Of a stretch of 64,000 bases of DNA, positions 2,273-2,337 are shown in pieces. The position numbers and the translations under genes are program-made. Each line of letters starts with the position of its first letter. Position 1 is the stretch's first letter. The notes under the pieces are model-generated. The model was not told the origin of the DNA. It did no database searches and saw nothing but the letters and a program-made list of their open reading frames with translations. This stretch comes from a virus (Duplodnaviria; Heunggongvirae; Uroviricota; Caudoviricetes), in IMG/VR virus record IMGVR_UViG_638275541_000001; one strand, written 5' to 3'.

Positions 2273-2307
2273 ATTTTGAGAGGGCTATTTAGCCCCTCCC
2301 TTAAAGA

Positions 2308-2325
2308 GTTCTTACGAGTATCCTT
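2308..2325 (+). repeat. conserved 18-mer GTTCTTACGAGnnTCCTT (copy 1 of 2)
   Basis: GTTCTTACGAGTATCCTT here versus GTTCTTACGAGAGTCCTT at ~6920-6937; both flanked by (T)TAAA. Confidence 0.5.
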
Positions 2326-2337
2326 TAAAGGAGCAGA

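What the first reader, a model, noticed from the sequence alone, without database searches (positions are those of the whole stretch)
2301..2330. Conserved 18-mer GTTCTTACGAGnnTCCTT present twice in the tRNA cluster
The same 18-mer with flanking TAAA occurs at about 2308-2325 and 6920-6937, 4.6 kb apart, both in tRNA spacers; copy 2 ends 4 nt before tRNA-His. It does not resemble the sigma70-like promoters elsewhere in the window. It might be a phage-specific promoter or a protein-binding or processing site.
Basis: seen in the sequence. Interest (0 to 1): 0.4.

Follow-up and report, generated by a model that had tools for sequence, protein, structure and literature searches.

The report
Conserved RNA hairpin in phage tRNA cluster
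The repeated 18-mer is the top of a small, evolutionarily conserved RNA stem-loop that Felix O1-type phages place just upstream of tRNA-His and of another structured RNA in their tRNA gene cluster. It is probably an RNA processing or stability signal, not a promoter.

Summary
The window is Salmonella phage Felix O1. The 18-mer lies exactly where reported (2308-2325 and 6920-6937, + strand). The repeat alone is not beyond chance: simulated 64-kb windows hold 60-90 pairs of 18-mers matching at 16 of 18.

Other evidence shows the element is real. Both copies are the apical part of a 10-12 bp hairpin capped by UACG, on the strand that is transcribed for the tRNAs. In about 25 relatives every stem substitution keeps pairing (G:C, G·U and A:U at one pair; G·U to A:U at two others). 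The core GGTTCTTACGAGAGTC recurs in the distant genus Kolesnikvirus, 10 nt before a tRNA-Leu, with a compensatory G:C to A:U change. A further lineage has both copies with UUCG and UAUA loops.

There are exactly two copies per Felix O1 genome, both in the tRNA cluster, with no promoter hexamers and no U-tract. The hairpin always ends 2-10 nt before the next structured RNA.

Best reading: a cis-acting stem-loop in the polycistronic tRNA precursor that marks or insulates a processing site. The function is inferred, not shown.

In passing: the gene just upstream encodes a Ro60-like protein, and four Y-RNA-like elements, one a YrlA-like tRNA mimic, sit among the tRNAs.

The parts
2301..2328 (+). 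Hairpin copy 1. 5' arm 2301-2312, UACG loop 2313-2316, 3' arm 2317-2328. The reported 18-mer (2308-2325) is its apical part. In this phage the pair 2307:2322 is an A·C mismatch.
   Evidence: Sequence; fold; covariance model hit of 51.6 bits. In relatives the pair 2307:2322 reads A:T 13, G:C 9, G:T 3 and A·C 1. One relative has a UGCG loop.
6915..6938 (+). Hairpin copy 2. 5' arm 6915-6924, UACG loop 6925-6928, 3' arm 6929-6938. Ten consecutive pairs, including the tandem wobbles G6920·U6933 and U6921·G6932. It fills the 31-nt tRNA-Gln to tRNA-His spacer.
   Evidence: Minimum-free-energy and centroid structures agree at -8.0 kcal/mol; covariance model hit of 53.3 bits. The variants G6920A and G6932A in relatives both turn a G·U into an A:U.
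2278..2298 (+). GC-rich hairpin A (GAGAGGGCUAUUUAGCCCCUC), 2 nt upstream of copy 1. It is conserved together with copy 1.
   Evidence: Fold; conserved island in the alignment of 30 relatives. L103 has GGAAGGACUUUUUAGUCCCUCC, which carries a compensatory G:C to A:U change.
6942..7017 (+). tRNA-His(GUG), whose 5' end lies 3 nt after the copy 2 stem. Position -1 is U, so no G-1 is encoded.
   Evidence: ARAGORN and sequence. In L103 the hairpin stays with tRNA-His although the upstream tRNA there is Leu(UAA), not Gln.
6835..6910 (+). tRNA-Gln(CUG), whose CCA end lies 4 nt before the copy 2 stem.
2196..2272 (+). tRNA-Asp(GUC), upstream of hairpin A and copy 1. In some relatives a different tRNA occupies this position while hairpins A and B are unchanged.
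   Evidence: upstream flanks differ among L006, L007 and L018.
2331..2410 (+). Y-RNA-like element E3. Its closing helix (GAGC...GCUC) starts 2 nt after the copy 1 stem.
   Evidence: The adjacency ...CCTTTAAAGGAGCAGAAGACC is kept in all relatives.

Best explanation
The 18-mer is the apical helix and loop of a cis-acting RNA stem-loop. It is transcribed as part of the polycistronic tRNA-cluster precursor, which starts at the sigma70-type promoters at 1397-1517 and 3445-3473. The hairpin has 10-12 bp, a conserved 5'-GGUUCU / AGAGUC-3' top with tandem G·U wobbles, and usually a UNCG tetraloop.

It sits in an otherwise AU-rich single-stranded spacer and ends 2-10 nt before the first helix of the next stable RNA. 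That RNA is tRNA-His for copy 2, a Y-RNA-like element for copy 1, and tRNA-Leu in Kolesnikvirus.

The most likely role (inferred) is to organise maturation of the precursor. It would keep the short leader of the downstream RNA and the trailer of the upstream RNA single-stranded and separate. That would fix where RNase P, RNase E or an exonuclease acts. It would also leave a nuclease-resistant spacer fragment, or block 3'-to-5' trimming, until an endonuclease cut is made. The apical sequence itself is conserved across genera, not only its pairing, so a factor probably reads it specifically; its identity is unknown.

Shown: the sequence, the hairpin, the covariation, the strand asymmetry, the copy number, the position and the phylogenetic spread. 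Inferred: that it acts in RNA, and in processing or stability.
For: (1) Hairpin. RNAfold gives 10 consecutive pairs for copy 2. RNAalifold independently predicts the same helix on 12 variants.

(2) Covariation. 91.7% of cells are paired, against 41-62% when the 3' partners are slid by 1-3 columns. Five pairs change on both sides, and 0/500 shuffles reach the observed covariation score. At pair 2307:2322 all of G:C, G·U and A:U occur. Kolesnikvirus has a G:C to A:U change at the neighbouring pair.

(3) Strand asymmetry. The two conserved G·U wobbles would be C·A mismatches on the other strand, and the tRNAs are all on the + strand.

(4) Loop. It reads UACG, UGCG or UUCG in four of the five loop variants seen.

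(5) Conservation. In 30 distinct relatives the hairpin is a conserved island between variable flanks. The 16-nt core is one of only three words of 16 nt or more shared by Felix O1 and Kolesnikvirus spacers, and it lies at a non-syntenic place. A shared word that long arose in 2 of 300 simulations.

(6) Position. It is always 2-10 nt before a structured RNA. In L103 it stays with tRNA-His although the upstream tRNA differs.

(7) Other long spacers of this cluster also end in a hairpin 1-5 nt before the next tRNA: 2553-2696, 3727-3790 and 4729-4818.

(8) Precedent. E. coli RNase III takes part in maturation of phage T4 tRNAs (PMC4810235).
Against: There are no transcript-end data for any Felix O1-like phage, so neither transcription through the element nor cleavage near it has been seen. 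The covariation rests on few independent events: three or four paralogue or orthologue classes plus a handful of point variants.

Copy 1 in this very phage is a weak hairpin. It has an A·C and a U·U mismatch, -4.5 kcal/mol, and a z-score of about 0. Ten to twelve base pairs is short for RNase III. A hairpin this close to a tRNA 5' end could hinder RNase P rather than help it.

The P778-like relatives (L102, L104) give no clear match, so the element is not universal among these phages. A palindrome also reads the same in DNA, so a DNA-level role is not excluded.
Confidence: 0.5

Rival explanations
1. Trans-acting product. After RNase P and RNase E cuts, the spacer is released as a small stable RNA (about 31 nt for copy 2). 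Its conserved GGUUCUUACGAG then pairs with, or titrates, another RNA or a protein. This would work like the tRNA-operon spacer RNAs of E. coli (3'ETS-leuZ; recalled from the literature, not checked here).
For: The 5' arm plus loop (GGUUCUUnnnAG) is conserved in sequence, not only in pairing. The copy 2 spacer is bounded on both sides by tRNA processing sites. The loop contains a CUUA (YUNR-like) turn.
Against: No convincing target was found. The only 10-nt complement in the window lies at 17859-17868, and about 0.1 such matches are expected by chance (my own estimate). The putative seed is mostly base-paired. Loop bases differ between lineages (UACG, UUCG, UAUA).
Confidence: 0.12
2. DNA-level palindrome: an operator or recognition site for a dimeric DNA-binding protein or a homing endonuclease of the tRNA cluster.
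For: The element is an imperfect inverted repeat. The variants G6920A and G6932A also make the DNA palindrome more symmetric. Three HNH endonuclease genes lie in the cluster. Other palindromes overlap promoters nearby (1389-1420).
Against: The conserved G·T positions make the two half-sites differ in the same way in three genera. G:C, G·T and A:T at one pair is the pattern expected for RNA pairing. There is no promoter to regulate at either site. The half-site spacing differs from the promoter-region palindromes.
Confidence: 0.08
3. No function: a chance repeat, or a decaying remnant of a tRNA arm (its GGTTC resembles a T-arm) carried along with neighbouring tRNAs.
For: A 16-of-18 repeat is expected by chance in 64 kb. 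AAGG-GTTC...-CCTT resembles the T-arm AAGGTTCAAATCCTT of the tRNA-Gln just upstream. tRNA fragments do occur in these spacers (2068-2082, 4436-4462).
Against: The identical 16-nt core occurs in a genus whose spacers are otherwise unalignable. Changes are compensatory and no stem-breaking substitutions are seen apart from this phage's own A·C. The element is a conserved island between variable flanks. It is not a T-loop: the purine 57 and A58 positions are U. Neither ARAGORN nor Rfam calls a tRNA there.
Confidence: 0.1
4. Phage-specific promoter.
For: The motif does not resemble sigma70 promoters, and Felix O1 late transcription is not understood (PMC3185647).
Against: There are only two copies per genome, both inside the tRNA cluster, and none upstream of a protein-coding gene. 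Copy 2 would start transcription at or inside tRNA-His. The covariation pattern is that of a hairpin. In Kolesnikvirus the element lies inside a leader, downstream of a consensus-like promoter. Felix O1 encodes no RNA polymerase.
Confidence: 0.03
5. Binding site for the phage's own Ro60-like protein, or substrate or decoy for the host tRNA deaminase TadA (its motif is YUACGAA in a stem-loop).
For: A Ro60-like gene lies directly upstream of the cluster, and copy 1 abuts a Y-RNA-like element. UUACGAG matches the TadA heptamer at 6 of 7 positions (PMC12255301). The one loop variant seen among the Felix O1-like relatives is A to G at the would-be edited base.
Against: Kolesnikvirus keeps the hairpin but lacks the Y-like motifs, and no Ro60-like gene is annotated in the locus fetched. 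The L103 copies have UUCG and UAUA loops, without the TadA motif. The covarying register gives a 4-nt loop, not a 7-nt one.
Confidence: 0.05

Closest known systems
Stem-loops in the spacers and leaders of polycistronic tRNA and rRNA precursors, including the RNase III-dependent step in phage T4 tRNA-cluster maturation
   Same: It lies on the transcribed strand of a phage tRNA cluster, between stable RNAs and just 5' of a tRNA. Other spacers of the same cluster carry long hairpins in the same position. A host RNase III role in T4 tRNA maturation is documented (PMC4810235).
   Different: It has only 10-12 bp, which is short for RNase III. Its sequence, not just its pairing, is conserved across genera. 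It recurs at non-syntenic places and also precedes a non-tRNA RNA. No cleavage has been shown.
UNCG-tetraloop hairpins (the extra-stable cUUCGg / cUACGg class)
   Same: The loop reads UACG, UGCG or UUCG in four of the five loop variants found.
   Different: The closing pair is U:A, not C:G. One lineage has UAUA. The stem below contains wobbles, and in copy 1 mismatches, so the hairpin is not especially stable (-4.5 to -8 kcal/mol).
Regulatory RNAs derived from tRNA-operon spacers (E. coli 3'ETS-leuZ and internal spacers; recalled from the literature, not checked here)
   Same: It is a conserved, non-tRNA sequence that would be excised as a by-product of tRNA processing.
   Different: No Hfq-type features and no target were identified. 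It is much shorter, and the conserved part is largely paired.
TadA editing sites (YUACGAA in a stem-loop, mimicking the tRNA-Arg2 anticodon arm)
   Same: UUACGAG in a hairpin loop region matches at 6 of 7 positions.
   Different: The covariation-supported register leaves a 4-nt loop. Homologous copies in L103 lack the motif.

Membership tests
Promoter (sigma70-type or phage-specific) | -35 and -10 hexamers at 16-18 nt spacing | tested here: not met
   The consensus scan of 1300-8500 finds promoters at 1397, 1488 and 3445 but none at either copy.
Promoter (sigma70-type or phage-specific) | Recurs upstream of genes or operons across the genome | tested here: not met
   There are exactly two copies, both inside the tRNA cluster. 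There are no other covariance model hits above 16 bits apart from the two copies' own reverse strands (18.4 and 16.0 bits), in the window or in the remaining 22 kb.
Promoter (sigma70-type or phage-specific) | Primary transcript 5' ends just downstream | not testable with these tools
   No transcript-end data were found for Felix O1-like phages.
Intrinsic (Rho-independent) terminator | GC-rich hairpin followed by a U-tract | tested here: not met
   The hairpins are followed by AAAGGAG and AAAUGUGG. The terminator scan does not call either site.
Conserved cis-acting RNA stem-loop | Helix supported by compensatory substitutions across homologues | tested here: met
   Five of 12 pairs change on both sides; 91.7% of cells are paired against 41-62% in the slid controls; RNAalifold predicts the same helix.
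Conserved cis-acting RNA stem-loop | Lies on a transcribed strand and pairs better on that strand | tested here: met
   It is on the same strand as all 25 tRNAs. The conserved G·U wobbles exist only on the + strand. Transcription itself is inferred.
UNCG tetraloop hairpin | 4-nt loop of sequence U-N-C-G | tested here: inconclusive
   The loop is UACG in Felix O1 copies 1 and 2 and in Kolesnikvirus, UGCG in L025 and UUCG in L103 copy 1, but UAUA in L103 copy 2. The closing pair is U:A, not C:G.
tRNA or tRNA T-arm remnant | Cloverleaf, or a 5-bp stem with a 7-nt T-loop (UUCRANY) | tested here: not met
   ARAGORN and Rfam tRNA models do not call it. The loop register from covariation is 4 nt, and U occupies the positions of R57 and A58.
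RNase III processing site | About two turns (roughly 20 bp) of double-stranded RNA | tested here: not met
   The stem has only 10-12 bp. Neighbouring leader hairpins of 16-26 bp would qualify. Cleavage is not testable here.
TadA substrate | YUACGAA heptamer presented in a stem-loop, conserved among homologues | tested here: not met
   The match is 6 of 7 in Felix O1, but the L103 homologues read UUCG and UAUA, and the structure gives a 4-nt loop.
Any Rfam family | Match to a curated covariance model | tested here: not met
   cmscan of 1-9000 at E up to 10 gives only noise (microRNA models, E above 3) over the two sites.

The most novel reading that the evidence does not exclude
The hairpin is a dedicated recognition element for a specific, so far unknown, phage or host RNA-binding or RNA-cleaving factor. 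That factor would control when particular RNAs of the cluster mature: tRNA-His, which here lacks the normally essential encoded G-1, and the Y-RNA-like E3. In that reading it is a regulatory switch in phage tRNA supply, not a passive spacer structure. The small sample in which an upstream hairpin goes with a tRNA-His lacking G-1 (3 of 3 with a hairpin, 2 of 2 without) would then be meaningful.
Probability: 0.12. Interest if true: 0.6.

Novelty: new member of a known kind. Interest (0 to 1): 0.33.

Why it matters
Phage tRNA clusters are now studied as counter-defence and translation-tuning modules. How their long precursors are cut into working RNAs is known only for T4, and only in part. A short element that is conserved across genera and easy to mutate, placed right at tRNA 5' ends, gives a concrete handle on precursor maturation in Felix O1-type phages, which are widely used for Salmonella typing and biocontrol.

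On its own it is a modest finding: a new small cis-RNA motif of unknown function. The neighbouring Ro60-like gene and Y-RNA-like elements, noticed in passing, may be the more rewarding lead.

Tried and rejected
- Chance alone. I first asked whether the repeat is significant. It is not, so the case had to be built from structure and comparison.
- More copies. A covariance model found none in the window or in the rest of the genome.
- A wider family. Exact-pattern scans of IMG/VR with four patterns returned only Felixounavirus, Mooglevirus, Suspvirus and Kolesnikvirus, plus random coding hits. A fifth pattern was badly designed and added nothing.
- Host origin. A scan of 185,579 bacterial and archaeal species genomes for the 16-nt core gave 35 hits, none in a hairpin context and none in Enterobacterales. 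It is therefore not copied from a host element.
- Shewanella phage S0112. It has a look-alike hairpin (GGTTCTTATAAGAGCC), which I judged coincidental: it is not in a tRNA context, and the same word occurs randomly elsewhere.
- Rfam. No family matched.
- TadA-substrate idea. Rejected as a general explanation because the L103 homologues lack the motif.
- Link to the Ro60-like / Y-RNA-like system. Rejected because Kolesnikvirus has the hairpin without the Y-like motifs.
- Antisense target in the phage. Only one 10-nt complement was found, at 17859, which is within chance.
- Small ORF or translational operator. There is no start codon after the AAGGAG that follows copy 1.
- Literature. The Felix O1 genome paper does not mention the motif, and no transcriptome of a Felix O1-like phage was found.

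Full report
**Identity of the window.** The region 1500-8100 is 100% identical to Salmonella phage FO1a (Felixounavirus felixO1) and 94-97% identical to dozens of Felix O1-like phages. ARAGORN finds 25 tRNA genes, all on the + strand, between 1544 and 8025. They are interspersed with three HNH endonuclease ORFs and two ORFs of unknown function. Consensus-like sigma70 promoters lie at 1397-1425, 1488-1517 and 3445-3473. The last one is the P45 promoter of the genome paper (PMC3185647).

**Check of the observation.** Copy 2 ends 4 nt before tRNA-His. Copy 1 lies 36 nt after tRNA-Asp. The flanking TAAA is exact only for copy 1.

The repeat by itself is not beyond chance. Simulated 64-kb sequences of the same first-order composition contain 62-88 same-strand pairs of 18-mers agreeing at 16 or more positions. 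Within the 2.2 kb of cluster spacers alone, at least one such pair appears in 11.5% of simulations. The case therefore has to rest on other evidence.

**Anatomy.** Both copies are the upper part of a hairpin on the + strand.
- Copy 2 folds as UAAGGGUUCU[UACG]AGAGUCCUUA. It has ten consecutive pairs including two adjacent wobbles, at -8.0 kcal/mol, and the minimum-free-energy and centroid structures agree.
- Copy 1 is UUAAAGAGUUCU[UACG]AGUAUCCUUUAA. In this particular phage it carries an A·C and a U·U mismatch and is weak (-4.5 kcal/mol).
- Copy 1 is preceded, 2 nt upstream, by a GC-rich hairpin at 2278-2298. It is followed, 2 nt downstream, by the closing helix of a repeated structured element, E3.
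- Copy 2 fills the 31-nt spacer between tRNA-Gln(CUG) and tRNA-His. The other tRNA-to-tRNA spacers that hold nothing else are only 1-7 nt long.

**Comparison within the Felix O1 group.** I collected the two sites from about 25 IMG/VR contigs and several GenBank phages of Felixounavirus, Mooglevirus and Suspvirus.
- In copy 1 the pair 2307:2322 reads A:T in 13, G:C in 9, G:T in 3, and A·C only in the window's own sequence.
- In copy 2 the only stem variants are G6920A and G6932A. Each converts a G·U wobble into A:U.
- The only loop variant is UACG to UGCG.
- In an alignment of 30 distinct versions of the copy 1 region, the hairpin and the GC-rich hairpin before it are conserved islands. The upstream tRNA, a 26-nt indel and the apical part of E3 all vary.

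**Comparison beyond the group.** I built a covariance model from ten variants.
- It finds only the two copies in the window, at 53.3 and 51.6 bits. The next hits are their own reverse strands at 16-18 bits.
- It finds nothing in the remaining 22 kb of the FO1a genome (best 15.7 bits).
- It does find a copy in Kolesnikvirus (Erwinia phage SunLIRen, Salmonella phage PMBT37), which reads AAAGGTTCTTACGAGAGTCTTT (25.1 bits, E 0.002). Its 16-nt core is identical to copy 2, and the adjacent G:C pair is replaced by A:U.
- That copy lies 10 nt before a tRNA-Leu. It ends a roughly 200-nt leader that starts at a TTGACA-N17-TAATCT promoter and is homologous to the window's P45 leader at 3474-3726.
- The two genera's spacers share only three words of 16 nt or more. 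A shared word of that length arose in 2 of 300 simulations.
- A more distant relative, reached through its Ro60-like gene (L103, 63% protein identity), has both copies. One follows tRNA-Asp and has a UUCG loop and a 15-16 bp stem. The other lies directly before tRNA-His and has a UAUA loop, and there the upstream tRNA is Leu(UAA), not Gln.
- P778-like phages (L102, L104) give no clear match.

On the 12 distinct variants, 91.7% of pair cells are standard pairs, against 41-62% when partners are slid. Five of the 12 pairs change on both sides, and RNAalifold predicts the same helix on its own. The caveat is that the number of independent events is small.

**What it is not.**
- Not a promoter. There are two copies per genome, both inside the tRNA cluster. 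There are no hexamers, copy 2 abuts tRNA-His, and the variation pattern is that of a helix.
- Not a terminator. There is no U-tract.
- Not a tRNA or a T-arm.
- Not an Rfam family.
- Not borrowed from a host. The 16-nt core occurs in 35 of 185,579 species genomes, never in a hairpin context and never in Enterobacterales.
- Not tied to the Ro60-like / Y-RNA-like system next to it. Kolesnikvirus has the hairpin but not those motifs.
- Not a general TadA site, although UUACGAG is one base from the YUACGAA editing motif. The L103 homologues lack that motif.

**Most likely mechanism.** The hairpin is on the transcribed strand, tolerates G·U but not C·A, and is kept by compensatory change. It always ends 2-10 nt before the first helix of the next stable RNA. 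Other long spacers in this cluster also end in a hairpin 1-5 nt before the next tRNA: 2553-2696 before tRNA-Lys, 3727-3790 before a tRNA-like sequence, and 4729-4818 before tRNA-Leu.

The best-supported reading is a cis-acting stem-loop of the polycistronic precursor that organises maturation. It would keep the short AU-rich leader and trailer accessible and separate, and so fix where RNase P and RNase E or exonucleases act. It would also give a nuclease-resistant spacer end. The top of the helix is conserved in sequence over genus-level distances, so a specific reader (protein or RNA) is probable. Its identity cannot be derived from sequence. The only precedent I could document is that host RNase III takes part in T4 tRNA maturation (PMC4810235). 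At 10-12 bp, however, this hairpin is short for that enzyme.

I put about 0.7 on 'functional RNA hairpin' and about 0.5 on the processing or stability role. The rivals are:
- a released trans-acting spacer RNA (0.12);
- a non-functional relic (0.10);
- a DNA palindrome (0.08);
- a Ro60-like or TadA ligand (0.05);
- a promoter (0.03).

**Novelty and interest.** No paper in the library mentions the motif. It is a new member of a familiar class, structured spacer elements of tRNA operons, and its function is unknown. Interest is modest.

**Seen in passing.**
- Ro60-like protein. The ORF at 38-1378 (gp42; DUF2828 plus DUF7788; PHROG 'RNA-binding protein') models with a mean pLDDT of 85. Its 12 best PDB matches are all Ro60/Rsr/TROVE structures.
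- Y-RNA-like elements. Four repeated elements among the first tRNAs share a closing stem. Its outer and inner helices covary around an invariant AGAAG/CUG internal loop.
- YrlA-like tRNA mimic. The fourth element folds into a T-arm, a capped acceptor-like stem and a D-arm, in the order described for bacterial YrlA Y RNAs (PMC4201824).
- The same gene and tRNA-like element recur in L103 and in the P778-like phages.

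Noticed in passing
window 38-1378 (+); the gene starts upstream of the window (full length 471 aa, P0001): gp42 (DUF2828 plus DUF7788; PHROG 850 'RNA-binding protein') is a structural homologue of the Ro60/Rsr (TROVE plus vWA) RNA-binding protein. The AlphaFold model has pLDDT 85, and its top 12 PDB Foldseek hits are all Ro60-type structures (E 1e-8 to 7e-7, TM 0.44-0.67). It has a DxSGS MIDAS-like motif. It sits directly upstream of the tRNA cluster in Felix O1-like, L103 and P778-like phages.
   Followed up: partly
window 1710-1788, 1877-1946, 2331-2410, 2418-2554 (+): Four Y-RNA-like elements share CAGAAGACCnnnTACAGCAA...nnGGTCTGG. The outer helix covaries (UUGC:GCAA, UUAC:GUAA, UGAC:GUCA, GAGC:GCUC), the inner helix covaries (ACCAA:UUGGU, ACCGU:ACGGU), and the internal loop AGAAG/CUG is invariant. 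Their apical parts are variable. They are absent from Kolesnikvirus. They are plausible ligands of the Ro60-like protein.
   Followed up: partly
window 2418-2554 (+): The fourth Y-like element folds (-35.2 kcal/mol, z -2.4) into a variable arm, a T-arm (GAGGG-UUCGAUU-CCUUC), a 7-bp acceptor-like stem capped by AGGU, and a D-arm. This is the T / acceptor-stem-loop / D order described for bacterial YrlA tRNA-mimic Y RNAs. No Rfam model matches it. Some GenBank records annotate it as a 131-nt 'tRNA-Thr' or as a minus-strand ORF. Homologous tRNA-like domains occur in L104 (about 12700-12835) and L102.
   Followed up: partly
window 6942-7017; L103 11913; L102 15909; L043 9248; L104 15867: The phage tRNA-His has U, not G, at position -1 (C73 is present), so the G-1 normally needed by bacterial HisRS is not encoded. 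The same holds in L103 and L102, which also have a hairpin just upstream. Kolesnikvirus and L104, which have no hairpin there, encode G-1. With n = 5 this remains unexplained.
   Followed up: partly
window 2553-2696, 3727-3790, 4729-4818 (+): Long, near-perfect hairpins end 1-5 nt before tRNA-Lys(2701), a tRNA-like sequence (3796) and tRNA-Leu(4820). Their stems are 22, 16 and 26 bp, and the 110-nt leader that holds the last one folds at -41 kcal/mol. They are good candidates for RNase III sites that separate tRNA sub-clusters from upstream RNA.
   Followed up: no
window 3796-3874 (+): Rfam's tRNA model matches here (31.7 bits, above the gathering score) although ARAGORN calls nothing. Its 3' part overlaps the start of the HNH endonuclease ORF 3848-4240.
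   Followed up: no
window 3474-3726 (+); L043 8180-8345: The leader RNA downstream of the P45 promoter (TTGACA-N17-TATAGT at 3445-3473) is conserved between Felix O1 and Kolesnikvirus. Shared blocks include ATTTAAAATAAATGCAAA, GCTAAACACCAGT and a terminal GC-rich hairpin. It gives only weak tmRNA-like Rfam hits (E 0.18-0.7). It may be an unannotated small RNA.
   Followed up: no
window 4282-4299 (+); L043 8510: GGAGGTGGTCTGTATCTC is one of only three words of 16 nt or more shared by Felix O1 and Kolesnikvirus spacers. Its function is unknown.
   Followed up: no
window 4376-4462 and 2068-2082 (+): There are tRNA-like fragments in the spacers. One is a T-arm plus acceptor 3' strand ending in CCA (GGTTCAACTCCTCCGTCCCATGCCA) just before tRNA-Ser. 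The other is a lone T-arm-like hairpin, TAAGG-TGCAAGT-CCTTA, between tRNA-Asn and tRNA-Tyr.
   Followed up: no
window 5650-5744 (+): The 95-nt tRNA-Thr to tRNA-Val spacer folds stably (-30.7 kcal/mol), with the ends CAGAGGUC...GACCUCU, and contains CUGAAGACCGU. It may be a diverged fifth Y-like element.
   Followed up: no
window 1389-1420 (+): A 12-bp palindrome, AAAGGGTA...TACCCTTT, encloses the -35 box of the first tRNA-cluster promoter. A similar arm recurs at 3727-3743. It may be an operator.
   Followed up: no
window 2866-3360, 3848-4240, 5158-5571 (+): Three HNH endonuclease ORFs are inserted between tRNA sub-clusters. They share a conserved 50-nt segment near their 3' ends, and their presence varies among relatives.
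   Followed up: no
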